Virus record (IMG/VR): IMGVR_UViG_2912391263_000005
Coordinates: 1 to 64,000 of that record
Length of the DNA: 64,000 nucleotides
Direction: 5' to 3' (one strand)
From: a virus
Shown: positions 1 through 38,264 of the stretch, in pieces
Position numbering within the stretch: position 1 is the first letter of the stretch
Layout of the letters: the number at the start of each line of letters is the position of its first letter
The notes under the pieces: generated by a model
Told to the model about the DNA's origin: nothing
The model's database searches: none
The model's input: only the letters and a program-made list of their open reading frames with translations
Position numbers and translations under genes: made by a program

Positions 1-1146
1 TTACAGTTTTTCTATATCTTCTTTCAATTTTTCTTTTACTCCTTTTGTCACATGCAAATAAATTTTTTCAGTGATATCACTATTTTCGTGACCAACGCGA
101 TCCTGAATGGCATACAGAGGAGTTCCTAGTTCCGCTAATTTTGAAATATGGGTATGTCTAAAAATATGTGAACTAAGTTTTTTATCAATCTTCATGTCAG
201 CTTTATGACTTCTCAAATAGGTGTTAATTGCTGTTAGTTGGAAAGGAGTTCCTTTCGTTGTTTGAAATAGAAATTGACCATTTGGATTTAATTCTAGAAG
301 CTCATTGTAAATAGCTATCGCTTTTTTTGGTAAATCAATTTCTCGCATTCCGGCAGCTGTTTTTGTAGAATCAGATTTTTTCATATCAGCTATTGAACGT
401 TCTCTATACATCATCGTCCCATTTATAACTACTGATGCATTATTATTGGTAATGTGTACATCATCTTTACTTAATGCGATTGCTTCACCAGACCTCATCC
501 CAGTCAAATATAGCCACTGGAAAAGGAGAGAATATCTTTTATTGTGTGAAGTTGTGAAATCTACTAGTCTATTATATTCATCATCTTCTAAAAATTTATC
601 TTTAATTTTTATCGTTTTTGACTCTCTTTTATAATCAATAACTACTTCATCGATAGGATTTTTTTCTACATAACCTTTTTTCATAGCATATGAAAAAAGA
701 AGATTCAATTTGGATTTAATTACACTGACGTACTTATTTGACAAGTCATCTTTATATATCATGTCTTCAAAAATATTATTCAAATCTATTGTATTAATAC
801 CAGAAACGATGTAAGTCTCAGGTATCTTCTTCTTTATAGTGTTTAATATATTATTCGTAGGATAATATGTAGATTCCTTAACTTGTCTTTTGTATATAAC
901 TAACCATTCTTCAACAAGCTCATGAAATGTTAGATCAGGCTTATGAAGTGTTTTTTCGTTTAATTTTATATCAATTTTTTTATTTAACTCTAGCAATGCC
1001 ACTTTCTGAGTTTCTCGAGATTTATTTTTATAAGTAATGCTCACTTTTTTTCTTTTTCTAGTTTTTGGATCAATATATCGCTCATTATATTTATATACTT
1101 TTTTTCCGTTTTTATCAGTTTTAGTTTCGATCCACATTGTTTTCAT
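1..1146 (-). CDS. int: phage tyrosine integrase / site-specific recombinase
   Basis: 381-aa ORF. The C-terminal catalytic region (HTHISKLAELG...VGH...IYLHV) is typical of tyrosine recombinases. The stop codon TAA (complement) sits at 1-3. It is the first gene of the lysogeny module, transcribed leftward. Confidence 0.9.
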   Translation of the reverse strand: MKTMWIETKTDKNGKKVYKYNERYIDPKTRKRKKVSITYKNKSRETQKVALLELNKKIDIKLNEKTLHKPDLTFHELVEEWLVIYKRQVKESTYYPTNNILNTIKKKIPETYIVSGINTIDLNNIFEDMIYKDDLSNKYVSVIKSKLNLLFSYAMKKGYVEKNPIDEVVIDYKRESKTIKIKDKFLEDDEYNRLVDFTTSHNKRYSLLFQWLYLTGMRSGEAIALSKDDVHITNNNASVVINGTMMYRERSIADMKKSDSTKTAAGMREIDLPKKAIAIYNELLELNPNGQFLFQTTKGTPFQLTAINTYLRSHKADMKIDKKLSSHIFRHTHISKLAELGTPLYAIQDRVGHENSDITEKIYLHVTKGVKEKLKEDIEKL

Positions 1147-1252: not shown

Positions 1253-1819
1253 TTATTGTGGTAGGTTATCTAAAGCGTATTGTGCTTGCTCATTTGTAAA
1301 ACCTTCAAATATAAGTTGATCGTACAATTGCGAATCTGACATTGATGCCCAATCATCGTAACTTTCCGCTTTAGCCAAAGCTTGTTCGTTGTAATCGACA
1401 TCAACATTAGCCAGCGCATAATCGATTGCATCACTTGGATATTCTTCAAACTCTAGTTGTTCACGCAAACCTTGTTCAGACATACCAGCCCAACCTAGAT
1501 AGCTTTCAGCTTTGCTCAATGCATTTCTGTATTCACGAGGAACACTTTCTTCTTGAGTAACTTCTTCTATAGTAGTTTCAGTAGTTTCAGTTTCTTCTTC
1601 AACGACTGTAGATTCTGCTACCGATTCTGCAGAAGACACTTCTGTCACGCTTTCTTTAGTTGTTTCAGCGACGGTATTTTTAGCATCATCACTGCCTCCT
1701 TGCGAACCTATAGCAATAAACACCACAACAACCGCTAACAACCAAAACCATACCCGTTTATAAAACGGTTTCTTAACTTTATACATTTTCCCATCTTGAC
1801 CCATAACTTTTTTTGCCAT
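1253..1819 (-). CDS. Ltp-family (host cell surface-exposed lipoprotein-like) membrane protein, superinfection-exclusion candidate
   Basis: N-terminal TM helix (WFWLLAVVVVFIAIG). Two tandem Ltp-type repeats follow (YRNALSKAESYLGWAGMSEQGLREQL... and EQALAKAESYDDWASMSDSQLYDQLIFEGFTNEQAQYALDNL). It sits between int and the repressor. Confidence 0.7.
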   Translation of the reverse strand: MAKKVMGQDGKMYKVKKPFYKRVWFWLLAVVVVFIAIGSQGGSDDAKNTVAETTKESVTEVSSAESVAESTVVEEETETTETTIEEVTQEESVPREYRNALSKAESYLGWAGMSEQGLREQLEFEEYPSDAIDYALANVDVDYNEQALAKAESYDDWASMSDSQLYDQLIFEGFTNEQAQYALDNLPQ

Positions 1820-2657: not shown

Positions 2658-3086
2658 TTATATAAGAAAACGATAAGCGCTTTCTGGAAGCCCGTAAAGA
2701 TTCTTTAATTCCTCGATTTTTTTAGGATATTGATCATTATCTTCTTTATAAAGAGAAACAATGAGATTAGCAGCAAAGCAATTAGCTTCGCTTTCAGATT
2801 TGCTTCTAGATGTTCTTGTTGATACATAATAGCTGGATAAGCCACGATGAAAAATAGCGTGACCTAATTCGTGAGCGCAAATGTAGAATCTTTCCTCAGA
2901 GTCTCGCAGTTCATCATTTAAAAAGATTATCGCACGATCTCTAATTTCTTGAAACTGCCCCTTGGGATTCTCGATAAAAGGAACGTATTGAATTTTAATG
3001 CCCATCTTTTCACAAATATAAAAAGGATTAGCGGACTGGTATTTCCGCTTCAACTCCTCGACTAAATTAATCGTATCCATCTCCAT
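2658..3086 (-). CDS. ImmA/IrrE-family metallopeptidase (anti-repressor protease)
   Basis: HEXXH motif in the context YICAHELGHAIFH. Directly downstream of the XRE repressor in the same operon. Confidence 0.8.
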   Translation of the reverse strand: MEMDTINLVEELKRKYQSANPFYICEKMGIKIQYVPFIENPKGQFQEIRDRAIIFLNDELRDSEERFYICAHELGHAIFHRGLSSYYVSTRTSRSKSESEANCFAANLIVSLYKEDNDQYPKKIEELKNLYGLPESAYRFLI

Positions 3087-3090
3087 AAGC

Positions 3091-3465
3091 TCACATCTTT
3101 TTGCCTTTTTCTTTGTCTTCTTTCACAATATCCCAGAAAGTCGCTATCAGGATATCTTTTACGCGCTGTATTTGTTCGGGTGTCAATGTTTCCCCACCAT
3201 AAGACATATTAACATTTGAGTCTAGTAGTTTATCAAGTTCAACCACTTCCTCTTTTGTAGCCCACTTGGGAACATTATTATTTCCCAATAAATAATCAGT
3301 TGTGACACCAAAATAATCAGCAACTTTCTTTAAGTTCTCAGATTTTGGCGAGGCTTTATCCCATCTTCTTATTTGTCCATTAGAGATGCCCACCTGTCTT
3401 TCTACTTCTGCTATAGTCACATGCTTTTCGTCTGCTAATTCTTTAATCTTAGTAACTAAACTCAT
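3091..3465 (-). CDS. XRE-family HTH repressor (cI-like)
   Basis: HTH_XRE pattern (VTIAEVERQVGISNGQIRRWDK). Likely ATG start at 3465 (complement) with an AAAGG RBS; the ORF table extends it to a TTG at 3474. Divergent from cro. Confidence 0.8.
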   Translation of the reverse strand: MSLVTKIKELADEKHVTIAEVERQVGISNGQIRRWDKASPKSENLKKVADYFGVTTDYLLGNNNVPKWATKEEVVELDKLLDSNVNMSYGGETLTPEQIQRVKDILIATFWDIVKEDKEKGKKM

Positions 3466-3523
3466 TATTATCAACCTTTCAAAGCTGAAAAGAAAATAAA
3501 TAGCTTAAAAGTTATATTTTTGG

Positions 3524-7195: not shown

Positions 7196-7882
7196 ATGCA
7201 GATTAAGAAGGCGACGGATATCGAACAAACCAAGGGAACATATTTGATCTACGGTGCTCCAGGAAAAGGTAAAACTTCAACGGCTAAATATTTTCCAGGG
7301 AAAACACTGATCCTTGATATTGATCGGACTTCAAAAGTCCTTAGAGGTGAGAAAAATGTCGATATCGTATATATCGACAACGAAGATACCTGGAACGACT
7401 GGGGCAACACGTTGGCTGATTTAACTACCAATTATGTAGGTGTTTATGACAACGTGGTTGTCGATAATGTCAGCGAATTGGAACGGTGTATTCTGTCCAG
7501 TTTAGGCGCAGAAGGAAAAAACAACGGCGTTCCTTCGCAAGGCGATTATCAATATATGCAATTTAGAATGGTGAACAGCCTACGCTATATGAAAAATTTA
7601 GACAGCAACCTTATCTGGACCGCATGGGAAGAAATCGATTTGTGGACGGATTCGGATGGATCTTCTTACAACATCGCTTTGCCGCAGATCAATCGAAAGA
7701 TTCGAAACAATATTTTGGGATTATGTGACGTTGTTGGTCGATTGATGGTAAAGGAAGACGATGAACGCGGATTTATTTTACAAGCCACAGATTCAACCTA
7801 TGCCAAAAATCAATTGGATAATAGATCTGGCTGTAAGCAAAGTGAGCTGATTTTATATGGAATTGTACGACTACCAGAATGA
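7196..7882 (+). CDS. AAA-family ATPase, Sak4-like (RecA-fold recombination protein)
   Basis: Walker A GAPGKGKT. Length and position next to the helicase. Confidence 0.75.
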   Translation: MQIKKATDIEQTKGTYLIYGAPGKGKTSTAKYFPGKTLILDIDRTSKVLRGEKNVDIVYIDNEDTWNDWGNTLADLTTNYVGVYDNVVVDNVSELERCILSSLGAEGKNNGVPSQGDYQYMQFRMVNSLRYMKNLDSNLIWTAWEEIDLWTDSDGSSYNIALPQINRKIRNNILGLCDVVGRLMVKEDDERGFILQATDSTYAKNQLDNRSGCKQSELILYGIVRLPE

Positions 7883-9206
7883 TTTAGTCGATCGTGCAAG
7901 ACAAGCCTATGTTGATGGTTACAAGGCACCATGTATCGTATCACCGTGCGGTTCTGGAAAATCAGTCATGGTTGCAGAGATCGCTAAACGAACCACACGA
8001 AAAGGCAACAGAGTGTTGTTCTTGGTCCATCGTCGTGAATTGATTGATCAGATCAAAGATACGTTTCAAAAGATGGGCGTAGATAATCAGCTTGTAAATT
8101 TCGGCATGGTTCAAACAGTCGTACGACATCTTAAAACCATCAAGAAACCACAACTGATCATCACTGACGAAAACCATCACGGGTTAGCAGCGTCCTACAG
8201 AAAAATCTATGAGTATTATTCGGACGTTCCGCGATTAGGTTTTACCGCGACACCCATCCGGTTAAACGGTAGTGGGTTGGGGGATGTGAACGACTTGCTA
8301 ATTGAAGGAGTATCGGCTAAATGGTTGATTGAGAATCATAGATTAGCTCCTTATGAATATTATGCACCTAAATTGATCGATACAGCCGAATTAAAGAAAG
8401 CTTCGACTGGAGATTTTACAAAGAAATCAATGGATAAGGCAGTGAAGAATACTATTTATGGCGACGTGTTGAAACATTATAAAACGTTAGCAGAAGGTGA
8501 ACAGGCAATAGCATACTGTCACAGTATCGATGCAAGTAAACACACTGCTGAAATATTCAACGATGCTGGTTATAAAGCAACACATATCGATGCAAAAACT
8601 CCAAAAGATGAACGTGCAGATATTATCGAAGCGTTCAGAAATCATGAAATTAAAATCCTATGCAATGTTGATTTGATCGGAGAAGGGTTTGATGTTCCTG
8701 ATTGTTCGACTGTAATTATGTTGAGACCTACTCAATCGTTATCATTGTACATTCAGCAATCGATGAGGGGGATGCGTTACCGACCAGATAAAACGTCAAT
8801 CATCATTGACCATGTGGGTAATGTGAACCGTTTTGGATTGCCTGATATGGATCGTGAATGGAGTTTAGATACAAAAAAGAAAACAAAAACTGATAGTGAT
8901 TTATCTATCGTTCAATGCGCGTTTTGTTTTGGTGCTTACGAACGGCCAAAAGGCGATAATATTTGTCCGTATTGCGGAGAGTTGCAGCCGATTGAAGAAC
9001 GAAAGTCAGAGTTAGAAATCGATGAATCGGCTGAATTAATGAAAGTCGGAGAAACGAAAATTACTTTGAATTTTGAGAACAATAAATATTACAACATGAC
9101 GGAAGATGAAGCAGAAAGTATAGAGGACTTATATGCCATAGCAAGAGCTAAAGGATTTAAACCTGGTTGGGCTTATATGGCTGCTAAGAGGAAGGGGTGG
9201 TTGTAG
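7857..9206 (+). CDS. SF2 DEAD/DEAH-box helicase with C-terminal Zn-ribbon
   Basis: Motif I GSGKS, motif II TDENHH. CxxC...CPYC cluster near the C-terminus. Confidence 0.8.
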   Translation: MELYDYQNDLVDRARQAYVDGYKAPCIVSPCGSGKSVMVAEIAKRTTRKGNRVLFLVHRRELIDQIKDTFQKMGVDNQLVNFGMVQTVVRHLKTIKKPQLIITDENHHGLAASYRKIYEYYSDVPRLGFTATPIRLNGSGLGDVNDLLIEGVSAKWLIENHRLAPYEYYAPKLIDTAELKKASTGDFTKKSMDKAVKNTIYGDVLKHYKTLAEGEQAIAYCHSIDASKHTAEIFNDAGYKATHIDAKTPKDERADIIEAFRNHEIKILCNVDLIGEGFDVPDCSTVIMLRPTQSLSLYIQQSMRGMRYRPDKTSIIIDHVGNVNRFGLPDMDREWSLDTKKKTKTDSDLSIVQCAFCFGAYERPKGDNICPYCGELQPIEERKSELEIDESAELMKVGETKITLNFENNKYYNMTEDEAESIEDLYAIARAKGFKPGWAYMAAKRKGWL

Positions 9207-9208
9207 GA

Positions 9209-9670
9209 ATGGGCGGTATTTTTGGTAAAAAAGCAGAAGATGTTCAAGGTTCAATAATAAATGGCGTAACAATAATAGGTGATACTGGAAAAAGAGATAG
9301 TTCAGGCAATCAAATTGTAATCGCTAGAAATAAAAATAACGAAGTTTTTGAATCTTCTCTATCTAATATAAAAAGAGGTGTTGTTAACGGGACAGGCGAA
9401 GAGAGTGGCTACGTTAATTTAAAAAAAGCTAATGAAAAATACCATGTTGAAGGAACTTACGTTAAGGCTTTGTCTGTCGGTGGAACAAAAGGCGTTAATT
9501 GGGATAAACGAAGAAATAAATGGAAAGCACGATTATATTTCAAAGGAGAATATGTCTTACAAAAGGATTTCAACACCAAAGAAGAAGCAATCCAAGCACG
9601 ACTTGCAGCAGAAGAAAAATATTTCAAACCTATCTTAGAAAAATATGAAAATAAAAAGGAGAATGATTAA
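9209..9670 (+). CDS. AP2-domain DNA-binding protein
   Basis: AP2-like segment WDKRRNKWKARLYFKGEYVLQKDFNTKEEAIQARLAAEEKYF. No HNH motif present. Confidence 0.5.
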   Translation: MGGIFGKKAEDVQGSIINGVTIIGDTGKRDSSGNQIVIARNKNNEVFESSLSNIKRGVVNGTGEESGYVNLKKANEKYHVEGTYVKALSVGGTKGVNWDKRRNKWKARLYFKGEYVLQKDFNTKEEAIQARLAAEEKYFKPILEKYENKKEND

Positions 9671-9671
9671 C

Positions 9672-10172
9672 ATGACAGGATTTAACTTAGACTTTTCAAA
9701 AGCGCAACAAGGGAACGAAATCAAAGACGGTACGTACGAAGTGGTCGTAAACAAAGCTGTAGAAAATGCAACTAAATCAGGCGCAGAATTTATCGATATC
9801 GATTTGATCGTTCGTAACGATGTGGATCAACCGTTCCAAAATAAACACATTTTCGCAAAAATCTGGAAAGCCAAAGCTACCGGCAAATATAACGAAGGTA
9901 TGATCATGGCAATTGCACAAGCGCTACAGTTGGAAGACGGAAAATCATATAACGGGTTTGATGAATTGCTGGCGGACTTTGTTTTGAAAACCGCCTCAGT
10001 ACGCGTGAAAACTGAAGAGTCAAATGGATATAAAAACGTCAATGTGAAGTCTTGGGATAAAACGAACACACGGGGCGTAATGAATCACCAATTCAAAAAT
10101 GGTGATGAACCATCCTTCGGACCGGAACGTTCAAGAGCGACAACGGTTAGAAATGACAATCTTCCATTTTAA
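9672..10172 (+). CDS. DUF669-family phage protein
   Basis: Size and position between the helicase and primase, typical of the Sak4/DUF669/primase module. Confidence 0.5.
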   Translation: MTGFNLDFSKAQQGNEIKDGTYEVVVNKAVENATKSGAEFIDIDLIVRNDVDQPFQNKHIFAKIWKAKATGKYNEGMIMAIAQALQLEDGKSYNGFDELLADFVLKTASVRVKTEESNGYKNVNVKSWDKTNTRGVMNHQFKNGDEPSFGPERSRATTVRNDNLPF

Positions 10173-10186
10173 TTGAGGTGTAATCA

Positions 10187-12499
10187 ATGTATGAAAAAAT
10201 TCCAAAAGAGCTTAAAAATCTCAAACAATGGTGTGTTTATAAGCTAGTTTGGGATGAAAAGCGGCAGAAGCACACGAAGATCCCTTATAACGCCAACAAC
10301 GGGCATAAAGCCAAATCCAATGACGAGAGTACCTGGTCTGATTTTCAGACCGCTCTCGCTGCTATTGATCACTACGGAATGAGTGGACTGGGGTTCTTTT
10401 TCAAACCACCTTATTTCGGCATTGATATCGATAATGCTGAAGGTGAAGTTGAGCGATTTAAATCAGGTGATATAGAAGAAAATATTATCTATGAATTTAT
10501 CGAAAGCATGAGATCCTATGCTGAGTATTCTCAATCAGGTACTGGCATCCACATTATTGCTCGCGGAGAATTGCCCGGCGGAAGACGCAGGAAAGGTGAC
10601 GTAGAAATGTACCAGAACGGCCGATTCTTCGTTATGACTGGAAATGCCGCATCAAAATATTTAGAAATAACTGAGCCGAATCCAAAGGATATCAAACGCC
10701 TATATGATCGCTACGTTGGAGATGAAAAAATCATCCAATTCAAAGAAGAAAATCCGCTGATGAATACCGTTGATTTACCGGTTGAAGAAATTATCAAACG
10801 TGCTGAATCGTCTTCCCAAGGGGCAAGATTCAAAGTCTTTATGAACGGCGGTTGGGAAGCTTTTTATTCCTCGCAATCCGAAGCGGATATGGCGTTCGCC
10901 AACGACTTGGCTTTTTGGACCGGTAGAGACTTTGAAAAAATGGATGAGATTTTCAGAGCGTCTGCAATGATCCGTAGCAAATATGACCAAAAAAGGGGAT
11001 CGGCAACTTACGGAGAATCTCTACTAAATAAGGCAATTGCTGATACAAATTCCGTCTACAACCCCAAACGGAAATCTGATTTTAAGATTTTTATCAAAGA
11101 CCAGGAACAGCCAAAAGAGGAAAAATACTATTCGTACGACGACACCGGCAACGCGGATCGGTTTACTGATATCTACGGAACGTTAGTCAAATATTCGTAC
11201 ATTGATAAATCTTGGTATTACTACGATGGGAAAGTTTGGCTACAGGACAATACCGGCGAAGTTCGGAAAATGATCGATACGACAGTAGACATCATGGGAA
11301 AAGAACCGTTAACGATCCCTGAAGGCGCAGACGATGAAACCAAAGAAGCTTTGATGAAAGCGAAAGAAAAACACGTCAAGCGTTCTCGCAGCAATGCCGG
11401 AAAAAACGCTATGATGGACGAATTGAAACATCGACTATCCGTATTGCCGGAAGAGTTCGACAAAGATAAAACGCTGTTCAACACACAAAGCGGCTATCTG
11501 TCTTTGCATGACGGTCTTCTACACGAGCATGAGATAGACAAAATGTTTACACGTGTTTCAAATGTCGAGTACACAGAATCGGTCGATTGTCCTATGTGGG
11601 AAGAATTTATTAATCAGATTTTTGACAATGATCAAGAATTAATCAGATATATCCAGAAATGTGTCGGATATTCCCTGACCGGATCTACCGGAGAGCAATG
11701 TATGTTCATCCTCTACGGTCATGGGTCAAATGGAAAGTCGGTATTTTTGGAAATTATTTCTGAATTGATGGGAAACTATGCGATGACTATGCAGGCACAA
11801 ACGATCATGGTCAAGCAAAGCCAATCATCAGCAAACAGTGATATTGCACGATTGAAAGGTGCGCGGTTGGTCACTTCGTCAGAACCGAATGAAGGCGTCC
11901 GACTGGACGAAGGTCTGGTCAAACAATTGACTGGTGGTGATAAAGTCACGGCTCGGCACCTTTATGGAAAAGAATTCGAGTTCGAACCTGAATTCAAGTT
12001 GTGGCTGGCAACGAACCACAAGCCCATCATCCGTGGGACCGATGACGGCATCTGGCGACGGTTAAATTTAATTCCATTCACTGTCCAAATCCCGGATCAC
12101 AAAAAGGATAAAAATCTGAAATTTAAATTGCAGACGGAGTTGCAAGGGATCCTTAAATGGGCAATCGATGGTTGCCTGTTGTGGCAGAGAGAGGGCTTGG
12201 AGAAACCAAAGTCGGTTGTTGCAGCGAGTCAGGATTATCGAAACGAAATGGATCAAATAGGTACATTTATCGAAACGTGTTGCGAAACAGGTCCAGGACT
12301 AAAAATATCAGGCGGAGAATTATACAAAGTTTATCGTGAATGGGCATCAGATAATGGCGAGCATACTTTCACTAACACGAAGTTTGGCAGAGAGATTTCA
12401 AAGAAATATAGCAAAGAAAAAGCTGGTGGATTTATGGTTTATAAAGGAATCACATTAAAACCAAGAAAATACGATAACGTTAGAGAACTTTTTAAATAA
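10187..12499 (+). CDS. bifunctional primase-polymerase / P4-type (D5-like) replicative helicase
   Basis: 770 aa. Walker A GHGSNGKS in the C-terminal half. N-terminal prim-pol-like region. Confidence 0.85.
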   Translation: MYEKIPKELKNLKQWCVYKLVWDEKRQKHTKIPYNANNGHKAKSNDESTWSDFQTALAAIDHYGMSGLGFFFKPPYFGIDIDNAEGEVERFKSGDIEENIIYEFIESMRSYAEYSQSGTGIHIIARGELPGGRRRKGDVEMYQNGRFFVMTGNAASKYLEITEPNPKDIKRLYDRYVGDEKIIQFKEENPLMNTVDLPVEEIIKRAESSSQGARFKVFMNGGWEAFYSSQSEADMAFANDLAFWTGRDFEKMDEIFRASAMIRSKYDQKRGSATYGESLLNKAIADTNSVYNPKRKSDFKIFIKDQEQPKEEKYYSYDDTGNADRFTDIYGTLVKYSYIDKSWYYYDGKVWLQDNTGEVRKMIDTTVDIMGKEPLTIPEGADDETKEALMKAKEKHVKRSRSNAGKNAMMDELKHRLSVLPEEFDKDKTLFNTQSGYLSLHDGLLHEHEIDKMFTRVSNVEYTESVDCPMWEEFINQIFDNDQELIRYIQKCVGYSLTGSTGEQCMFILYGHGSNGKSVFLEIISELMGNYAMTMQAQTIMVKQSQSSANSDIARLKGARLVTSSEPNEGVRLDEGLVKQLTGGDKVTARHLYGKEFEFEPEFKLWLATNHKPIIRGTDDGIWRRLNLIPFTVQIPDHKKDKNLKFKLQTELQGILKWAIDGCLLWQREGLEKPKSVVAASQDYRNEMDQIGTFIETCCETGPGLKISGGELYKVYREWASDNGEHTFTNTKFGREISKKYSKEKAGGFMVYKGITLKPRKYDNVRELFK

Positions 12500-12500
12500 A

Positions 12501-12742
12501 TCTGGAGGGTTCTGGAGGGTTGAGAACGAAACCCTCCAACCCTTAGAAACGTTGATATATCAGTATTTATATTATATTTTTCTTTCTTTCTGGAGGGTTT
12601 TAAAAAAATAATAAAGTATTAAAGTAAAAAATAAAAAGTAAATTATATAAAAAAGAATAGGTTTTTGGGTCTGACCCTCCAAACTCTCCACCAAAATCTT
12701 CCTAAATGCTTTGATACCAACGATTAAACAGTCTGGAGGGTT
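12501..12742. repeat. iteron cluster (TCTGGAGGGTT) flanking an AT-rich unwinding element; putative phage origin
   Basis: Direct copies at 12501-12511, 12511-12521, 12589-12599 and 12732-12742. Inverted copies at 12530-12540 and 12673-12683. A more than 85% AT stretch lies at 12560-12660. Confidence 0.55.
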
Positions 12743-12745
12743 ACA

Positions 12746-13063
12746 TTGAAATCAGAACATCAAATACAAGACGAGATCAGAATTGCCTTATCAAAACATG
12801 GTTGCACGATTTTTCGATCCAATGCGGGACAAGTGACAACGATCGAAGGGCGGCAATTTTACGGGATGCCAAAAGGGTTCCCAGATCTATGTGGACATCG
12901 TAATTCTGATGGGAAAGCAATTTATATAGAAGTAAAAAATGAACGCGGTAAGTTGCGTGAAGATCAAAAAAGGTTTGCTGAATTTTTAAACGGTCAACCT
13001 GTACTATACGGTGTTGCACGATCAGTGGAAGAAGCATTGAAAATTGTGGAGGAATCATCATGA
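12746..13063 (+). CDS. VRR-NUC domain nuclease
   Basis: TTG start. Motif IEVKNERGKLREDQKRF. The last iteron GGAGGG serves as its RBS. Confidence 0.7.
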   Translation: MKSEHQIQDEIRIALSKHGCTIFRSNAGQVTTIEGRQFYGMPKGFPDLCGHRNSDGKAIYIEVKNERGKLREDQKRFAEFLNGQPVLYGVARSVEEALKIVEESS

Positions 13064-13221
13064 CAACAGAAGAAGTGATTCAAATGCGTATTCGAAGCCT
13101 TCAGCGTGAGATTGACGATCTGGAACGGACAAAGGCAGTGATGGTCAATGAAACGGCGAGGAAGGCAATCGATGTGCACATAGAGAATTTAAGAAGGGAA
13201 ATCCGTAGATTGGAGGAATGA
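13060..13221 (+). CDS. small coiled-coil protein (53 aa)
   Basis: ATGA overlap with VRR-NUC. Not in the ORF table. Confidence 0.3.
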   Translation: MTTEEVIQMRIRSLQREIDDLERTKAVMVNETARKAIDVHIENLRREIRRLEE

Positions 13222-13544
13222 GCGTGGATAAGGAAGCGGCTTGGCGAAAATTAATGTTGCTGATTCAAGATGAGAACTGGCAAGAAGATGAAGCAGTGGT
13301 TGCTGAAGTTCAGCGTCTAGAAAAGATTGCTAACGGACGTATACGAAAAAAGCCAGACAAAAGAAAACAGCGCAAAGGGAAAATCGTCGTTGTTTTACAC
13401 GAAGGCAAAATTTTGATGCAAGGAACAGCTAGTGAGCTGTCTGCAGAAACTGGATATACGCGTGGGACTATTCGAACGTACGCTTGGCGAAATCACACCG
13501 ATCGAAAAGGGCACGAATATAAGTATTTGGAGGAAGAAAAATGA
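13218..13544 (+). CDS. hypothetical phage protein
   Basis: 108-aa ORF, coupled to its neighbours. Confidence 0.45.
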   Translation: MSVDKEAAWRKLMLLIQDENWQEDEAVVAEVQRLEKIANGRIRKKPDKRKQRKGKIVVVLHEGKILMQGTASELSAETGYTRGTIRTYAWRNHTDRKGHEYKYLEEEK

Positions 13545-14356
13545 ACGAAAACAAATTAATCAAATTGGGTGTAGCAGGAGCAGTAATCGTAGGTATTGGA
13601 GTTATCGGAGGATTTAAGTTCTTCGAAAAAATCGATAATGGATATGTGGGTGTGCGCTATTCAATGAACGGCGGTATCAAAGATGAAGCACTGACGCAAG
13701 GTGTGAAATTTGTAGGGATTGACAAAGTGATCCAATATCCAATTCGCTTGCAAACTATCCAATCAAAAAATATTTCAGTATCTACAAGCGACGGCAAAAA
13801 GACAACGATTGATATCAAATATGACTACAAAGTTGATTCAACTAAAGCAGCAAAAATGTACAAGGAATTTGGGAATATCACTTCGGAAGATATCGAAAGT
13901 GGATGGTTAAAATCTAAGCTTCAAAAGGTCGCTCGTGAAGTTTATGCGAAATATAGTCTGCTTGATGTCCTTTCAGGAGATTCCTCTAAAGTTGAAGCTG
14001 AGGTATTAACGAACTTTGCTAAATCAGTTGAATCTAAAGGGTTTGAAGTCGAAGACGTAACACTTGGTGTTCCAGATGTCGATAAAGAAACACAAAAATC
14101 AATCGATGCGATCATTCGAGCTGGTCAAGAAAATGAAAAAGCGAAGCTAGACGCAGAAACTGCAAAAACTCAAGCTGATAGTGAAGCTTACAAGAAAACA
14201 AAAGCTGCAGAAGCAGAGGCAGAATCTAATCGCAAAGTCGCCGAATCAGTAACAGACAATTTGATTCGTTATGAAGAAGCTCAAGCTCGCAAAAAGCATG
14301 GATGGGTAACAGTAAATGGAGCAGATACTGTAGTTACGGATGAAGCAGGCAAATAA
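13541..14356 (+). CDS. SPFH/band-7 (prohibitin/HflC-like) membrane protein
   Basis: N-terminal TM (LGVAGAVIVGIGVIGG). SPFH-like core. C-terminal A/E/K-rich coiled coil. Confidence 0.7.
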   Translation: MNENKLIKLGVAGAVIVGIGVIGGFKFFEKIDNGYVGVRYSMNGGIKDEALTQGVKFVGIDKVIQYPIRLQTIQSKNISVSTSDGKKTTIDIKYDYKVDSTKAAKMYKEFGNITSEDIESGWLKSKLQKVAREVYAKYSLLDVLSGDSSKVEAEVLTNFAKSVESKGFEVEDVTLGVPDVDKETQKSIDAIIRAGQENEKAKLDAETAKTQADSEAYKKTKAAEAEAESNRKVAESVTDNLIRYEEAQARKKHGWVTVNGADTVVTDEAGK

Positions 14357-14357
14357 T

Positions 14358-14483
14358 ATGGGATTCTTTATGGCTAAAATTCTCTTGTTCTTAGGTTTAG
14401 TAGGAGCAGCATATCTCGTGTATGCGCTCCTTTCCCAAACTGATGACAAAGAAGATGACAACAACGATGAAATGAAATTTTAG
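14358..14483 (+). CDS. small membrane protein (41 aa) downstream of SPFH gene
   Basis: Single TM (AKILLFLGLVGAAYLVYALL) plus an acidic tail. Not in the ORF table. Confidence 0.35.
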   Translation: MGFFMAKILLFLGLVGAAYLVYALLSQTDDKEDDNNDEMKF

Positions 14484-14494
14484 GAGGAGAAATA

Positions 14495-14806
14495 ATGGAC
14501 GAACTAATCACAAAAGTAGAGCAGTGGGCTAAAGACAAGGGACTGGATCAAGCAGATCCAAAAGCACAGTTTTTGAAAGTAGCTGAGGAATTCGGGGAAA
14601 TAGCTTCGGCGATGGCAAGAAGTAATGATGAACTATTTAAAGATAGCGTAGGAGACGTTATCGTCACGCTGATTATCCTTTCCATGCAAAAAGGGACAAA
14701 CGTACAAGAGTGTTTAGAAATGGCATACAACGAAATCAAAGGACGCACAGGGAAAATGGTAGATGGTGTATTCGTGAAGTCGAGTGATTTGGAGGATGTG
14801 AAATGA
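14495..14806 (+). CDS. MazG-like nucleotide pyrophosphohydrolase
   Basis: Phage-MazG pattern (EEFGE...). 103 aa. RBS GGAGGAG. Confidence 0.7.
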   Translation: MDELITKVEQWAKDKGLDQADPKAQFLKVAEEFGEIASAMARSNDELFKDSVGDVIVTLIILSMQKGTNVQECLEMAYNEIKGRTGKMVDGVFVKSSDLEDVK

Positions 14807-15033
14807 AATACGAAATACCACTAAGTGAAGCGGGCATTCAAGCAATTATCAATGGTCGGGAGGTTAACATAGAACTTCCTGATGGTACTGAATTAGTCAT
14901 CAGACAAAGTTATTTGAAAGATATGGCAGCTCCAGTATTAATTGATCGTTTTAACGTGACTGATTCTGTGGTAGAGAACCACTTAAAAGAATTTCGATCA
15001 AGTATAGACAACACTTTCAGATTAGGGAGTTGA
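14803..15033 (+). CDS. hypothetical phage protein
   Basis: 76-aa ORF, coupled. Confidence 0.4.
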   Translation: MKYEIPLSEAGIQAIINGREVNIELPDGTELVIRQSYLKDMAAPVLIDRFNVTDSVVENHLKEFRSSIDNTFRLGS

Positions 15034-15039
15034 TTGACA

Positions 15040-15243
15040 ATGAACACCAGACACCGCAGAGTAGCAAAACTAAGAAAACAGGAACTAAATGTACTAAAGA
15101 CAAAGTTTGAAAAAGAATATGGAATTTCAGCAGAAGAAACATATAAAGTGGCAAGTCAGTTTGTTGCTGATGCAAGTGATGCTATTCGTAAGTTTGGGAT
15201 TTCGATATTAAATGATGATCGTAAATGGGAGGAAATGAGATGA
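15040..15243 (+). CDS. hypothetical phage protein
   Basis: ORF in the table from 15034; ATG at 15040 is the likely start. Confidence 0.4.
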   Translation: MNTRHRRVAKLRKQELNVLKTKFEKEYGISAEETYKVASQFVADASDAIRKFGISILNDDRKWEEMR

Positions 15244-15539
15244 AACTAAAAGACGGATTTTACGCTAGTAGTCACGGCATCGGCGGTTTAATGCTAGATA
15301 TGCCGACAAAGAACCCTAAAACACGTAAGAAACCAAAAGTCAAAGTTGGTGACATGGTTCGCTGTGAAGCAGAAGGGTTCATCTATCCGTTTCGTGGATA
15401 TGTAGAGCATCTCTATAATCACTCAGCGATCATTCGCATTGAAAACACGATGGAATGTGACAAGTGGTTAGCGAAAAGCAAAGAGAATTTAGCTGTAGCG
15501 AGATTGGTGGATATGGAGGTTATAAACAATGAAGTTTAA
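15240..15539 (+). CDS. hypothetical phage protein
   Basis: RBS GGGAGGAAATGAG before ATG 15240. Confidence 0.4.
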   Translation: MKLKDGFYASSHGIGGLMLDMPTKNPKTRKKPKVKVGDMVRCEAEGFIYPFRGYVEHLYNHSAIIRIENTMECDKWLAKSKENLAVARLVDMEVINNEV

Positions 15540-15693
15540 AATCTTTGAAGAGGACACTCGTTATAAATTAGAAAAAGAATTAAACGATTTTGCGAAAAAC
15601 AATGAGATTCAGCATATATCTTTAGCAACTTCTAAGAGAGGTTATGCAAATTACTATGCAGCTGTTGTGAGCTATGTAAGTCGAGAAGTGTAA
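15529..15693 (+). CDS. Cse60-like small protein (54 aa)
   Basis: MKFKIFEEDTRYKLEKELNDF... resembles the small Cse60 family frequent in Firmicute phages. Not in the ORF table. Confidence 0.35.
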   Translation: MKFKIFEEDTRYKLEKELNDFAKNNEIQHISLATSKRGYANYYAAVVSYVSREV

Positions 15694-15781
15694 CTCGGCA
15701 AATAAAAAAAGCCGGATCGCTCCGACTGATTCAATAAATCCAACACATTTATTATATCACATAAAGGAGCGGTTTGACTTG

Positions 15782-16195
15782 ATGCAATTGTTACGAGAGG
15801 TAGATTTCAAACAGACAAGATGTAATGCGAGAGATGTGCTGAAGAACTTTCGGCGTTTGGAGCGGATGGCAGGTCGCTCTTTGATAGATATTAAGTCGCC
15901 GATTATTACGGATATGCCGAAGGCACCGAAGCACGGCAATAAGGCAGAAGACGCGATCATTCAAATGATGGATATAGAAGCGGAGAGAGACGCGATTCTA
16001 GCGGCTTTGATGGCTCTTAGTCTGATTAGTCGTCAGATACTCTACTACAGCTTCTGTGTGCCAGATAGCTTCTCAAACTACAGGATTAGCCGTGAAGTGG
16101 GTTATTCAGAAAGAAGCATACAAAGGATGAAGTCGGAAGCTCTAATAGAGTTTGCAGAAGCGTATAAACACGGAAGAATAATTGCTTATAAATAG
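15782..16195 (+). CDS. arpU: ArpU-family late transcriptional regulator (sigma-like)
   Basis: About 137 aa. C-terminal sigma region-4-like HTH (ERSIQRMKSEALIEFAEAY). Positioned before the packaging module. Confidence 0.7.
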   Translation: MQLLREVDFKQTRCNARDVLKNFRRLERMAGRSLIDIKSPIITDMPKAPKHGNKAEDAIIQMMDIEAERDAILAALMALSLISRQILYYSFCVPDSFSNYRISREVGYSERSIQRMKSEALIEFAEAYKHGRIIAYK

Positions 16196-16207
16196 GGGGA
16201 CCATATA

Positions 16208-16594
16208 ATGTGGAAAGATTATGTATCGTTGAAAGAGTTGAAAAAAGATCTTGTTTTCAAAAGAATTGTAGAATGGTCAGAGAGTGAATTAATTTTAGAA
16301 GATGGAACCAAAATGGAAGTTGTATGTAGCGAATCAGATTGCTGCGCATGGGCCGAAGGTGAATTCAAAAATGTAAAGCTTGATGCAGTGATTACAGATA
16401 TAAAGATTTTTGATAAAGGTAACCGTCTCTATAATGGTGACGGACATACCTCTTATGCTGAAGTCGTTGTTTATCATAATCGTAATGAGATCGCTAAAGC
16501 AGAATGCACAGCGAATGATGGGAATGGCGGCTACTATTATAGTGTTTGTGCTTTAAAGGTCAAAGACAAACTTTGTATAGTGACTGACGCATAA
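16208..16594 (+). CDS. hypothetical Cys-rich phage protein
   Basis: 128-aa ORF with RBS GGGGGACC. Confidence 0.45.
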   Translation: MWKDYVSLKELKKDLVFKRIVEWSESELILEDGTKMEVVCSESDCCAWAEGEFKNVKLDAVITDIKIFDKGNRLYNGDGHTSYAEVVVYHNRNEIAKAECTANDGNGGYYYSVCALKVKDKLCIVTDA

Positions 16595-16906: not shown

Positions 16907-17059
16907 ATGAAATTATCAGTAGAAGGCACTCCAGAAGAAATACAAGAATTGCTCCAAGCTATTGGTAGTAGCAAGGAGCAAAAGGTAAGTGTTTCTAATT
17001 CAGATATTGACGGTATTTGCAATTGTTTAAACAGAGAAAAAATATCTAATCCTTACTAA
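16907..17059 (+). CDS. small hypothetical protein (50 aa)
   Basis: RBS TTGGAGGGAAG before ATG 16907. The upstream part of the table ORF 16847..17059 is probably leader. Confidence 0.3.
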   Translation: MKLSVEGTPEEIQELLQAIGSSKEQKVSVSNSDIDGICNCLNREKISNPY

Positions 17060-17343
17060 GAGAAAATATGTTCGTTAATGAATTTCCAATTTTCCTCTGT
17101 AGCTCTACCTTGATAATTTTTTTGCAGTTCACAGATGAATAAGGAATCGTTATTATCAAGTACTGTATTTAATTTTTCACACATTTGATTTGGATTCAAA
17201 TTAGTTTTAACTAACCAAAAAGATTTTTGTAGCTTTATATATGCCCCAAATTCTTTTATTATTTCAAATACTTTATCATACTTTTGCCCTGGGTTATTAA
17301 GATCATAACTAATCATGTAGGGTTTATACATGTTGTCTTGCAC
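17056..17343 (-). CDS. hypothetical protein with Cas2/VapD-like sequence pattern; reverse-oriented moron
   Basis: 95 aa. Pattern YDLnn...KVFEIIKEFGAYIKLQKSFWLVKT...DSLFICEL resembles the ferredoxin-like Cas2/VapD fold. Motif-level call only. Confidence 0.35.
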   Translation of the reverse strand: MQDNMYKPYMISYDLNNPGQKYDKVFEIIKEFGAYIKLQKSFWLVKTNLNPNQMCEKLNTVLDNNDSLFICELQKNYQGRATEENWKFINEHIFS

Positions 17344-37749: not shown

Positions 37750-38043
37750 ATGATTAATTTAGGGGAATGGGGAGCGATAGCAGGATCAATAACCGCTATC
37801 GTTTCTTTGATTTTATTAGTAATAAAACCAATTACTGCATCTTTCTCGAAGATTACTGAGACTCTTTCAAAAGTAAGTCACAATTTAGATTTGCTGACTA
37901 AAGATTTAGAATCGAGCAAATCAGATCGATTGATGATTCATGAAGAACTAAAGAAACACGATGAAAGATTAGATACACATGCAGAAAAATTGGTAGAACA
38001 CACGCAACAAATTAAAACTTTATTTAGGGAGAGAAGAAAATGA
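37750..38043 (+). CDS. membrane protein with C-terminal coiled coil (lysis-associated)
   Basis: N-terminal TM, then a charged coiled coil. Precedes the holin. Confidence 0.45.
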   Translation: MINLGEWGAIAGSITAIVSLILLVIKPITASFSKITETLSKVSHNLDLLTKDLESSKSDRLMIHEELKKHDERLDTHAEKLVEHTQQIKTLFRERRK

Positions 38044-38264
38044 ATAATAAAACGTTCGAAGTACTAAAATGGTTCGCACTGGTAATTATTCCCGCACTAG
38101 CTACTTTCGTGGGGTTAGTTGGTAAAGCGCTCAATTGGCAGTACACAGATATCTGTGTTGTCATCATTACTGGTTTTGGCGCGTTTTTAGGGAGTGTGTT
38201 GGGTGTATCAAATCGAACCTACAAAATGTTCTCGGCTGAAAGCGAAGAAGGAGGAAACAAATGA
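38040..38264 (+). CDS. holin
   Basis: 74 aa, two TM helices, charged C-terminus. Immediately before the endolysin. Confidence 0.65.
   Translation: MNNKTFEVLKWFALVIIPALATFVGLVGKALNWQYTDICVVIITGFGAFLGSVLGVSNRTYKMFSAESEEGGNK

What the first reader, a model, noticed from the sequence alone, without database searches (positions are those of the whole stretch)
13541..14483. SPFH/band-7 membrane protein plus small TM partner inside the phage early region
A 271-aa SPFH-family protein (N-terminal TM, C-terminal coiled coil) is followed 2 nt later by a 41-aa single-TM protein.

The pair sits between replication genes and MazG.

SPFH proteins scaffold membrane microdomains. One inside a phage early region is not core phage function. 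It could act in exclusion, membrane remodelling or defence/anti-defence.
Basis: partly seen in the sequence, partly recalled or inferred. Interest (0 to 1): 0.5.

Follow-up and report, generated by a model that had tools for sequence, protein, structure and literature searches.

The report
Phage prohibitin-like scaffold plus micro-protein partner
An Enterococcus faecium prophage carries a mobile two-gene cassette for a prohibitin-like (SPFH) membrane scaffold and a conserved 41-residue membrane micro-protein; such phage scaffolds are often annotated, but their function and this partner have not been studied.

Summary
ORF 13541-14356 (+) is a genuine SPFH/Band-7 protein (Pfam E=3.6e-25). Its predicted fold is closest to the solved prohibitin and HflK/C cages. 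One nucleotide after its stop codon (not two), ORF 14358-14483 encodes a real 41-aa single-pass membrane protein.

The window is an E. faecium temperate siphophage. The pair lies in the early lytic operon, after the primase-helicase and VRR-NUC genes and before MazG.

New findings:
- The two genes form a discrete ~0.97-kb cassette. It occurs in prophages with unrelated replication and packaging modules, and sibling phages lack it.
- The micro-protein follows every SPFH homologue of about 47% identity or more that was examined, with one exception. It has an M-x-F-F-I-x-K start and an acidic tail ending in Phe. It evolves much faster than the SPFH gene.
- More distant phage homologues usually carry an unrelated small membrane-protein gene upstream. 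The Kayvirus mbpV-mbpS pair is an abundant early transcript.
- The partner is not NfeD. Nothing matches known defence systems, and the phage has separate Ltp exclusion and holin genes.

Best reading: an early-expressed, phage-built membrane cage with a dedicated small subunit, possibly corralling FtsH. Function is inferred only. This is a new variant of a known kind, of moderate interest.

The parts
13541..14356 (+). SPFH/Band-7 (prohibitin/HflK-C-like) membrane scaffold gene, 271 aa. It has an N-terminal transmembrane helix (about residues 3-25), an SPFH domain (28-175), a long coiled-coil helix (182-253) and a conserved C-terminal H-G-W-V-T-V motif. It contains no cysteine, so it is not a lipoprotein.
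   Evidence: Pfam PF01145 E=3.6e-25; phrog_200 E=4e-65; AF2 model pLDDT 82; Foldseek against PDB, top hit human prohibitin 8rrh at E=1.8e-15, then HflK/C, erlin and stomatin; phmmer against PDB, prohibitin at 1.4e-5; conserved columns; Cys count and charge statistics.
14358..14483 (+). 41-aa single-pass membrane micro-protein (MGFFMAKILLFLGLVGAAYLVYALLSQTDDKEDDNNDEMKF). It has a conserved M-x-[FY]-F-[IL]-x-[KR] N-terminus, one transmembrane segment and an acidic tail ending in Phe. It is probably translationally coupled to the SPFH gene (TAA-T-ATG).
   Evidence: ORF. Conserved directly downstream of SPFH in IMG/VR, GTDB and NCBI loci. Among 36 distinct sequences, F4 is present in 35, K/R7 in 35 and a terminal F in 31. 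dN/dS about 0.46. No significant Pfam, NCBIfam, PADLOC or PHROG hit for this variant. The Herelleviridae variants fall in phrog_25022, function unknown. The profile search finds only 'hypothetical proteins' of Enterococcus, Desemzia and their phages, apart from one marginal hit.
13521..14499 (+). Extent of the mobile two-gene cassette: both genes, the GGAGG ribosome-binding site at 13529-13533, and sequence up to the ribosome-binding site and start of the next gene. Homology to other prophages begins and ends at these edges while the flanks differ.
   Evidence: blastn of window 12001-16500 against the fetched loci gives blocks 13521/13528..14488/14499 in L009 and L013-L022. MazG lies upstream of the cassette in L009, L016 and L021. 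The cassette is absent between conserved flanks in phages vB_ElaS_B1578, LM 4-11-1 and 4995_2. The identical protein occurs in prophages with different replication and packaging modules.

Best explanation
SHOWN. The pair is a mobile, accessory two-gene cassette of Enterococcus phages. It encodes a prohibitin/HflK-C-like SPFH scaffold protein and a dedicated 41-aa single-pass micro-protein. It sits inside the early lytic operon of an E. faecium temperate siphophage. It has a strong ribosome-binding site, no nearby promoter-like site, and a start codon that overlaps the stop of the upstream gene.

INFERRED, moderately supported. Both genes are made together early after induction or infection, not in the lysogen. 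The SPFH protein inserts with its N-terminus inside the cell and its SPFH and coiled-coil parts on the outer face of the membrane, and it oligomerises into a ring or cage as all solved SPFH proteins do. The micro-protein inserts with its short MGFF N-terminus outside, near the SPFH ring, and its acidic Phe-terminated tail in the cytoplasm. This would make it a small integral subunit or client of the cage.

INFERRED, weakly supported. The cage builds a phage-specific membrane compartment that corrals host membrane proteins. The best-precedented target is the FtsH quality-control protease, which HflK/C and prohibitin cages enclose. The cytoplasmic tail of the micro-protein would act as a pseudo-substrate or adaptor. 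The effect would be to stabilise phage proteins and membrane function until lysis.
For: Identity and fold: Pfam Band_7 E=3.6e-25. AF2 gives a transmembrane helix, an SPFH domain and a 72-residue helix. The top solved-structure matches are the prohibitin, HflK/C, erlin and stomatin cages at E=1e-15 to 1e-12, and prohibitin is also the best sequence match in the PDB.

Cassette and accessory status: sharp homology edges at 13521-14499 with variable flanks. Sibling phages lack the cassette. The identical 271-aa protein occurs in prophages with Sak/HNHc_6, YqaJ-RecT-DnaC-like or D5-primase replication modules and with different terminases, twice in one genome.

Dedicated partner: it lies immediately downstream, 4 nt of overlap to 11 nt of spacer, in nearly all homologues of about 47% identity or more. 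Its termini are conserved although the rest diverges rapidly.

Generality of 'SPFH plus small single-pass protein': distant homologues have an unrelated small membrane-protein gene immediately upstream. Examples are Kayvirus MbpV-MbpS, Sextaecvirus, Bacillus phage B5S, and Listeria, Lachnospiraceae and Clostridia prophages.

Early expression: the operon context and the absence of a nearby promoter or terminator. Kayvirus mbpV-mbpS is transcription unit TU15, with its own early sigma-70 promoter, and is abundant from 5 min after infection (PMC7698491 main text and supplementary files 2 and 3).

Topology: for SPFH, the N-terminal tail has net charge +1.9 against +0.1 for the 15 residues after the membrane segment (n=112). 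For the partner, K/R counts are 0.7 on the N-side against 2.5 just after the membrane segment, and 88% of 33 sequences have more on the C-side.

FtsH precedent: it is established knowledge that HflK/C and prohibitin cages enclose FtsH and the m-AAA protease. PDB 7vhq, 7wi3, 9cz2 and 8rrh are among the top structural hits.
Against: There is no experimental or co-occurrence evidence for FtsH or any other client.

The protein fails the HflK and HflC equivalog models: 18 bits against cut-offs of 159 and 134.

Only one SPFH gene is present, whereas HflK/C and PHB1/2 are hetero-oligomers.

The topology of this particular copy is ambiguous. Its N-terminal tail carries only about +1, and the partner tail is almost purely acidic.

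The transmembrane segment of the partner is not conserved, and partner and SPFH divergence correlate only weakly (r=0.32). A specific helix-helix complex is therefore unproven.

Mitis-group streptococcal prophage homologues and Bacillus phage FADO lack any adjacent small membrane-protein gene, so the partner is not obligatory for the SPFH family.

The literature states that the role of phage SPFH genes is unknown (PMC13239085; PMC7150955).
Confidence: 0.4

Rival explanations
1. Exclusion or membrane protection during lytic growth. The early-made cage on the outer membrane face would re-seal or stiffen the membrane after DNA injection, or block DNA entry by secondary phages, as the early membrane proteins Imm and Sp of T4 do.
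For: The proteins are membrane-located, and the homologous module is expressed early and abundantly in Kayvirus. The SPFH domain is predicted to be extracytoplasmic. The cassette is accessory, highly mobile and 100% conserved among unrelated E. faecium prophages, which suggests a competitive benefit. The partner evolves fast, at dN/dS 0.46 against 0.08 for SPFH, as expected in an arms race. The B. subtilis SPFH protein YdjI links PspA to the membrane (Scholz et al. 2021, seen only as a reference-list entry in PMC11153139; its content is from my own knowledge).
Against: There is no homology to known exclusion proteins. The prophage already encodes an Ltp exclusion lipoprotein in the lysogeny module. 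The cassette is not placed or promoted for expression in the lysogen. No experiment has addressed this.
Confidence: 0.2
2. Membrane tether for replication proteins. The cytoplasmic acidic Phe-terminated tail of the micro-protein would mimic the C-terminal tip of SSB (DDD[IL]PF). Clustered by the SPFH ring, it would recruit or sequester SSB-binding replication and repair proteins at the membrane.
For: The tails end in D-D-E-M-K-F (window), DDELKF and DDD[LF][ND]F (E. faecium, Carnobacterium and Desemzia variants) or DDWxxF. The partner is predicted to have its C-terminus inside the cell. The cassette lies among replication or nucleotide-metabolism genes in this window, in EF24C (RNR/ThyA), in FADO (GyrA/Nrd) and in B5S (DNA polymerase). 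The phage's own DUF669 protein ends in NDNLPF. Acidic tails ending in Phe are established replisome-docking motifs in E. coli SSB and in T7 gp2.5 and gp4 (from my own knowledge).
Against: The motif lacks the penultimate Pro of SSB tips. Most Enterococcus variants have W-x-x-F spacing. Upstream-type partners in other lineages have no such tail. Co-location with replication genes may only reflect early-operon membership. No binding data exist.
Confidence: 0.1
3. Lysis or secretion helper. The scaffold would organise a membrane raft for holin timing or for Sec-dependent export of phage wall hydrolases, as proposed for Kayvirus MbpS and Tgl.
For: In Kayvirus, mbpV-mbpS lies between lysK and tgl, and the authors suggested that MbpS may aid Tgl export and that MbpV resembles holins (PMC7150955).
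Against: In this window the cassette is about 24 kb from the holin (38040-38264, phrog_881) and the endolysin (38261-39286). Kayvirus mbpV-mbpS is a separate early transcription unit, unlike the late holA/lysK unit. In EF24C, FADO and B5S the gene sits among DNA-metabolism genes. The partner matches no holin family.
Confidence: 0.1
4. A prophage-expressed defence or abortive-infection module that benefits the lysogen.
For: It is an accessory, moron-like cassette that is very common in E. faecium prophages. In some Lachnospiraceae prophages the distant homologue follows directly after an HTH regulator gene.
Against: There is no PADLOC match. No promoter-like or terminator-like site flanks it, and it is co-oriented and overlaps with the early lytic genes. 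Homologues are near-universal in virulent Herelleviridae and are early lytic transcripts.
Confidence: 0.05

Closest known systems
Prohibitin (PHB1/PHB2) and bacterial HflK/HflC cages
   Same: These are the best sequence matches and fold matches. The architecture is the same: an N-terminal transmembrane anchor, an SPFH domain, a long coiled-coil helix and a short C-terminal segment. The likely topology is also the same, with the N-terminus inside the cell and the SPFH domain outside.
   Different: Identity is only about 20%. The protein fails the HflK and HflC equivalog models. There is a single SPFH gene rather than two paralogous subunits. It is phage-encoded. It is paired with a 41-aa micro-protein. 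Any link to FtsH is untested.
Kayvirus MbpV-MbpS (Staphylococcus phage K, G1 and 515A1)
   Same: MbpS is a homologue (about 36-38% identity; phrog_200). It is also a two-gene unit with a small single-pass membrane protein whose tail is predicted to be cytoplasmic. It is transcribed early and abundantly. Its function is unknown (PMC7150955).
   Different: The gene order is reversed, with MbpV upstream. MbpV is 102 aa with a basic tail, belongs to phrog_3667 and shows no similarity to the MGFF...F partner. The Kayvirus unit has its own promoter and lies next to the lysis genes in a virulent myovirus.
Enterococcus Herelleviridae (Brockvirinae) ORF207/ORF206 of phiEF24C
   Same: This is the closest characterised-phage counterpart. 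The SPFH protein is about 70% identical and is followed directly by a 49-aa MGFFIAK...DNWLDF micro-protein (phrog_25022).
   Different: It lies between the ribonucleotide reductase and thymidylate synthase genes of a 142-kb virulent phage. It is annotated as 'lipoprotein' or 'hypothetical'. Its tail ends in W-x-x-F rather than M-K-F.
SPFH-NfeD operons (QmcA-YbbJ, FloA-NfeD, PH1511-PH1510)
   Same: An SPFH gene is co-transcribed with a membrane-protein partner that is thought to sit within the SPFH cage (8z5g is among the fold hits; background in PMC13086221).
   Different: The partner has no NfeD/OB-fold domain and no protease domain. It has one transmembrane segment and is 41 aa long. The QmcA-type SPFH domain faces the cytoplasm, whereas here it probably faces outward.

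Membership tests
SPFH / Band 7 superfamily (PF01145) | Sequence match to the Band_7 profile above the curated threshold | tested here: met
   89.5 bits against a cut-off of 23.6, E=3.6e-25, covering profile positions 2-174 of 176.
SPFH / Band 7 superfamily (PF01145) | Alpha/beta SPFH fold followed by a long coiled-coil helix, with a membrane anchor at the N-terminus | tested here: met
   AF2 model, pLDDT 82: helix 3-25, strands and helices 28-175, helix 182-253. Foldseek matches prohibitin, HflK/C, erlin, stomatin and flotillin at E=1e-15 to 1e-8.
SPFH / Band 7 superfamily (PF01145) | Assembly into a large ring or cage oligomer on the membrane | not testable with these tools
   Only a monomer could be modelled. 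The conserved C-terminal HGWVTV segment has low confidence in the monomer.
HflK / HflC (FtsH modulators) | Match to the equivalog models TIGR01933 and TIGR01932 above their cut-offs | tested here: not met
   18.4 and 17.6 bits against cut-offs of 159.4 and 134.4.
HflK / HflC and prohibitin PHB1/PHB2 | Two paralogous SPFH subunits encoded and assembled together | tested here: not met
   There is a single SPFH gene in the cassette and in all contexts examined.
HflK / HflC and prohibitin PHB1/PHB2 | N-terminus inside the cell and SPFH domain outside | tested here: inconclusive
   The family-wide charge bias favours an inside N-terminus: net +1.9 for the N-terminal tail against +0.1 after the membrane segment, with 75% of 112 sequences biased this way. 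The window's own copy is nearly balanced.
HflK / HflC and prohibitin PHB1/PHB2 | Physical association with an FtsH or m-AAA protease | not testable with these tools
   No co-occurrence or interaction data are available. This rests on inference from fold similarity only.
SPFH-NfeD operon | Partner carries an NfeD C-terminal OB-fold domain (PF01957), with or without a ClpP-like protease domain | tested here: not met
   The only Pfam hit for the 41-aa partner at E<=0.1 is a sub-threshold FixQ match (E=0.082, 13.3 bits against a cut-off of 29). It is too short to hold an OB fold.
PHROG phrog_200 ('lipoprotein') | Profile match | tested here: met
   E=4.3e-65, residues 4-264.
PHROG phrog_200 ('lipoprotein') | Lipobox cysteine, as the family's 'lipoprotein' label implies | tested here: not met
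   The window's protein contains no cysteine, and 88% of 112 homologues also have none.
Kayvirus MbpV-MbpS type module | SPFH homologue adjacent to and co-oriented with a small single-pass membrane-protein gene | tested here: met
   The order is reversed here, with the partner downstream.
Kayvirus MbpV-MbpS type module | Partner homologous to MbpV or to the other upstream-type partners | tested here: not met
   They fall in different PHROGs or in none. hhalign of the downstream-type profile against the upstream-type profile gives probability 33% over 1 aligned column.
Known anti-phage defence systems (PADLOC-DB v2) | Match of either protein to a defence-system model | tested here: not met
   No hits at E<=0.1 for either protein.
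Prophage superinfection-exclusion genes (Ltp / Sie type) | Homology to Ltp or Sie families, and location in the lysogeny module expressed from the prophage | tested here: not met
   There is no such homology. The cassette lies 10 kb into the early lytic operon with no promoter-like site nearby. A genuine Ltp gene sits at 1253-1819 (-).
Holins | Match to a holin family, or location next to the endolysin gene | tested here: not met
   The partner has no holin hit. The phage's holin (phrog_881) is at 38040-38264, directly upstream of the endolysin.

The most novel reading that the evidence does not exclude
The 41-aa protein would be a membrane-anchored mimic of the SSB C-terminal tip, an acidic run ending in hydrophobic-x-Phe-COOH. 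An extracellular prohibitin-like ring would cluster it into a multivalent patch on the cytoplasmic face. The phage would use this patch early in infection either to pull SSB-binding replication or repair proteins, or its own replisome, onto the membrane, or to sequester them away from host DNA. That would be a new way for a virus to couple a membrane scaffold to DNA metabolism. It would also give a first concrete function for the widespread phage SPFH genes.
Probability: 0.1. Interest if true: 0.8.

Novelty: new variant of a known kind. Interest (0 to 1): 0.42.

Why it matters
SPFH genes are among the more common 'odd' membrane genes in phages. phrog_200 is a low-numbered family, 421 of about 50,700 phage records hold a homologue of this protein, and there are further families in T4-like, Vi01-like, N4-like and giant viruses. 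Even so, papers as recent as 2026 say their role in a phage is unclear.

This locus provides a compact and genetically tractable case. It is a 0.97-kb cassette found 100% conserved in many unrelated prophages of the hospital pathogen E. faecium. It comes with a previously undescribed obligate-looking micro-protein whose two conserved ends give clear mutational targets.

The broader pattern, phage SPFH plus a small single-pass protein with either gene order, suggests a general two-component design analogous to SPFH-NfeD. Working out the client of this cage (FtsH, the replisome or the cell envelope) would bear on phage-host membrane biology. Because virulent Enterococcus and Staphylococcus therapy phages carry homologues, it would also bear on phage-therapy genomics.

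The evidence so far is purely computational. The finding is solid as anatomy and open as function.

Tried and rejected
- NfeD-like partner: rejected. There is no NfeD or OB domain hit, and the protein is only 41 aa.
- Known defence system: rejected. There is no PADLOC hit for SPFH, the partner or the neighbouring genes beyond noise.
- 'Lipoprotein', the PHROG and GenBank label: rejected. The protein has no cysteine.
- HflK or HflC orthologue: rejected. The scores are far below the equivalog cut-offs.
- Homology between the Enterococcus downstream partner and the upstream partners of other lineages: not detectable (hhalign; different PHROGs).
- Natural SPFH-partner fusions that would fix the topology: none found among 120 homologues or among the long ORFs L034 and L069.
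- Mirror-tree co-evolution: only a weak correlation (r=0.32), which is not informative about physical contact.
- tblastn of the window's phage proteins against the 80 genome loci, to score prophage context: too insensitive because of mosaicism. It was replaced by the precomputed Pfam contexts.
- The first dN/dS script timed out and was rerun.
- Literature searches for any functional study of phage SPFH proteins, or of SPFH in defence or exclusion, returned only annotations and speculation.
- Base composition of the cassette is unremarkable: 38.3% GC against 38.5% for the prophage.
Full report
OBSERVATION

The window is a prophage of about 39 kb followed by host chromosome. The prophage is 38.5% GC and the host part 35.3%. 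From left to right it holds:
- a tyrosine integrase (1-1146, minus strand);
- an Ltp-type lipoprotein (1253-1819, minus strand);
- an ImmA/IrrE protease and a CI-like HTH repressor (2658-3474, minus strand);
- a rightward early operon, followed by terminase, portal and tape-measure genes;
- a holin (38040-38264) and an endolysin (38261-39286).

Exact-sequence look-up assigns the SPFH protein and its small neighbour to Enterococcus faecium, with one E. hirae record.

ORF 13541-14356 (+) encodes 271 aa. It matches Pfam Band_7/SPFH at E=3.6e-25, nearly end to end on the profile, and phrog_200 at E=4e-65.

That start is the one conserved in relatives, and it is the commonest public gene call.

WHAT THE LARGE PROTEIN IS

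An AlphaFold2 model built on a 15-sequence alignment has pLDDT 82. It shows an N-terminal hydrophobic helix (3-25), an alpha/beta domain (28-175) and a single helix of 72 residues (182-253). The last 18 residues have low confidence.

Foldseek against the PDB puts the human prohibitin complex first (8rrh, E=1.8e-15). The HflK/C-FtsH, erlin, stomatin, QmcA-YbbJ and flotillin cages follow. By sequence, prohibitins are also the only solved relatives, at E of about 1e-5.

The protein is not an HflK or HflC orthologue: it scores 18 bits against cut-offs of 134-159. Despite the PHROG and GenBank label, it is not a lipoprotein, because it has no cysteine.

The family has a strongly conserved C-terminal E-A-x-A-R-x-K-H-G-W-V motif. 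By analogy with solved cages this could be the strand that closes the cap, but that is inference.

Across 112 homologues the N-terminal tail is net positive (+1.9) while the 15 residues after the membrane segment are neutral (+0.1). This favours an HflK/prohibitin-like orientation, with the N-terminus inside and the SPFH domain on the outer face. The window's own copy is nearly balanced.

WHAT THE SMALL PROTEIN IS

The small ORF is not a chance ORF. A small single-pass ORF follows the SPFH gene, from 4 nt of overlap to 11 nt of spacer, in these places:
- 36 of 37 IMG/VR loci;
- the E. faecium chromosomal contexts, although it was not called as a gene in two of the eight places shown;
- every GTDB locus whose SPFH protein is about 47% identical or more, except L067, whose SPFH reading frame is interrupted, and L069, whose downstream membrane ORF lacks the motifs.

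The genera are Enterococcus, Vagococcus, Carnobacterium, Desemzia, a genome labelled Peptostreptococcus faecalis, and Liquorilactobacillus, whose variant lacks the tail motif.

Thirty-six distinct sequences share three features:
- an M-x-[FY]-F-[IL]-x-[KR] start (F4 in 35 of 36, K/R7 in 35 of 36);
- one hydrophobic span, usually followed by a few Lys or Arg;
- an acidic run and a C-terminal Phe (31 of 36).

The tail is either D-D-W-x-x-F, or, as here and in Carnobacterium and Desemzia, D-D-[DE]-[LMF]-x-F.

The rest of the protein diverges fast. Median dN/dS is about 0.46, against 0.08 for SPFH. One pair of loci has 98% identical SPFH proteins but partners only 36% identical.

Charge bias predicts a short N-terminus outside and the tail in the cytoplasm: 0.7 K/R before the membrane segment against 2.5 after it, with 88% of 33 sequences biased that way. 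The window's nearly pure acidic tail leaves this open.

The protein has no significant Pfam, NCBIfam or PADLOC match, and this variant has no PHROG match. The Herelleviridae versions form phrog_25022, function unknown. A profile search of 5.8 billion proteins returns 35 clusters. All that carry a name are 'hypothetical' or 'uncharacterised', and apart from one marginal hit labelled Mycobacteroides (E=2e-3) those with a named organism are from Enterococcus, Desemzia and an Enterococcus phage. It is not NfeD-like.

A MOBILE CASSETTE

blastn of window 12001-16500 against the fetched loci shows a homology block whose edges fall at 13521/13528 and 14488/14499 in many prophages, while the flanks differ. 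In three loci MazG lies upstream of the pair rather than downstream. The nearest sequenced phages (vB_ElaS_B1578, 4995_2, 'Listeria' phage LM 4-11-1) share both flanks but lack the pair.

The identical 271-aa protein is indexed in more than 7000 blocks of the assembly collection. It sits in E. faecium prophages with unrelated replication modules (Sak plus HNHc_6; YqaJ-RecT-DnaC-like; D5 primase here) and unrelated packaging modules. One genome has two copies in two different prophages.

In every case examined the pair lies in the rightward early operon, a few kilobases beyond the repressor/Cro switch. No sigma-70-like promoter or terminator-like hairpin flanks it here. Its ATG overlaps the stop of the upstream gene, and a GGAGG ribosome-binding site precedes it.

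In virulent Enterococcus Herelleviridae, however, a homologous pair of about 70% identity appears to be the rule (53 Enterococcus records; EF24C ORF207/ORF206, between RNR and ThyA).

THE WIDER PATTERN

tblastn finds homologues in 421 phage records: Staphylococcus 275, Bacillus 54, Enterococcus 53, Streptococcus 18. BFVD shows SPFH folds in many further phages and in giant viruses. A phage SPFH gene is therefore ordinary as an annotation.

The recurrent pairing does not seem to have been noted. More distant homologues usually have a different small single-pass gene immediately upstream, often overlapping the SPFH start. Examples are:
- Kayvirus mbpV-mbpS and Sextaecvirus;
- an unannotated 44-aa ORF in Bacillus phage B5S;
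- prophages of Listeria, Peribacillus, Lachnospiraceae and Clostridia.

These upstream partners show clear outside-N, inside-C charge patterns. They show no detectable homology to the Enterococcus partner. Mitis-group streptococcal prophages, Javan137 and Bacillus phage FADO lack any such neighbour.

For Kayvirus 515A1, published RNA-seq shows that mbpV-mbpS is its own transcription unit (TU15) with a consensus early promoter. It is abundant at 5 min and stays so, unlike the late holA/lysK unit beside it (PMC7698491 main text and supplements).

HOW IT MOST LIKELY WORKS

Shown: an SPFH scaffold and a conserved micro-protein, co-inherited and probably co-translated, embedded in early lytic transcription.

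Inferred:
- The SPFH protein forms a ring or cage on the outer membrane face, as every solved SPFH protein forms a cage.
- The micro-protein is its small membrane subunit or client, with its conserved N-terminus near the ring and its conserved tail in the cytoplasm.
- The complex creates a phage-specific membrane compartment early in infection.

For the client I favour FtsH-type quality control. The only well-established job of prohibitin and HflK/C-type cages, the closest structural relatives, is to enclose that protease. Small membrane or amphipathic proteins with cytoplasmic tails, such as YccA, lambda CIII and SpoVM, are known FtsH pseudo-substrates (from my own knowledge). This step has no direct support here, and I give the full model about 0.4, most of which rests on the anatomical part.

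Rivals:
- Exclusion or membrane protection during lytic growth (0.2). Against it, the phage already has Ltp, and nothing links SPFH proteins to exclusion.
- A membrane tether that mimics the SSB C-terminal tip (0.1). The tails resemble DDD[IL]PF, the phage's own DUF669 protein ends in NDNLPF, and the cassette keeps company with replication genes. But the Pro is missing and most variants have a different spacing.
- A lysis or export helper, as suggested for Kayvirus (0.1; PMC7150955). Early expression and the 24-kb distance from holin and lysin speak against it.
- A lysogen-expressed defence module (0.05). The context, the absence of a PADLOC hit and the presence of homologues in virulent phages speak against it.

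NOVELTY AND VERDICT

The SPFH gene is a new member of a known, widely annotated but functionally unstudied phage family. As recently as 2026 authors wrote that the reason for an SPFH gene in a phage 'remains unclear' (PMC13239085).

The new elements are:
- the MGFF...Phe micro-protein family;
- the sharply bounded two-gene cassette and its spread through unrelated E. faecium prophages;
- the general 'SPFH plus small single-pass protein' design, with either gene order.

I class this as a new variant of a known kind. The interest is moderate: the anatomy is solid and experimentally tractable, and the function is open.

Noticed in passing
window 1253-1819 (-): An Ltp-type superinfection-exclusion lipoprotein gene lies next to the integrase in the lysogeny module (PF07553 E=1e-29; phrog_4980 'superinfection exclusion'). 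It shows that the prophage has a separate, classically placed exclusion gene.
   Followed up: partly
window 17056-17343 (-): A 95-aa ORF lies antisense to the early operon. It has a sub-threshold Cas2-like Pfam hit (PF09827, E=2.6e-4, 21.5 bits against a cut-off of 23.8) and a strong match to phrog_1090 (function unknown). It sits in a region with several terminator-like hairpins and could be a moron or a small nuclease-fold gene.
   Followed up: no
window 9645-10172 (+): A DUF669 protein in the replication module ends in ...RNDNLPF, a motif resembling the C-terminal tip of SSB. This is consistent with an SSB-like role.
   Followed up: no
L124 and L125 (E. faecium CP112142.1, 2408100-2422915 and 888054-902869): One E. 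faecium chromosome carries two different prophages that each hold the identical SPFH plus 41-aa cassette. Across genomes, the same protein sits beside unrelated replication modules (Sak/HNHc_6, RecT/YqaJ/DnaC-like, D5 primase) and unrelated terminases.
   Followed up: partly
L133:1246-1380 (+) (Bacillus phage B5S, NC_047736): An unannotated 44-aa single-pass ORF (MYSLLVGIIMLLILLAGLWVLAGKKGIF...) lies 12 nt upstream of the annotated 'putative band 7 protein' gp196. It is probably a missed gene of the same two-component design.
   Followed up: partly
L077, L084, L085 (Lachnospiraceae / Faecalimonas prophages), about 7570-8870: In these distant homologues the small membrane-protein gene and the SPFH gene follow directly after a short Cro/CI-type HTH gene on the same strand. 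The pair would then lie at the very start of an operon next to the immunity switch, a different regulatory position from the Enterococcus cassette.
   Followed up: no
L027 versus L058 (IMG/VR and Enterococcus sp. UD-01 loci): The SPFH proteins are 98% identical, but the downstream micro-proteins are only 36% identical and keep just the MGFFI-K start and the DDW/SW-x-x-F end. The partner may have been replaced by recombination or may have diversified very quickly.
   Followed up: partly
window 13218-13544 (+): The 108-aa gene immediately upstream of the cassette belongs to phrog_5224. It has weak similarity to 'host nuclease inhibitor' (phrog_803) and to HNH or homing-endonuclease models. It is not part of the mobile block, because the upstream neighbour differs between loci.
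   Followed up: no
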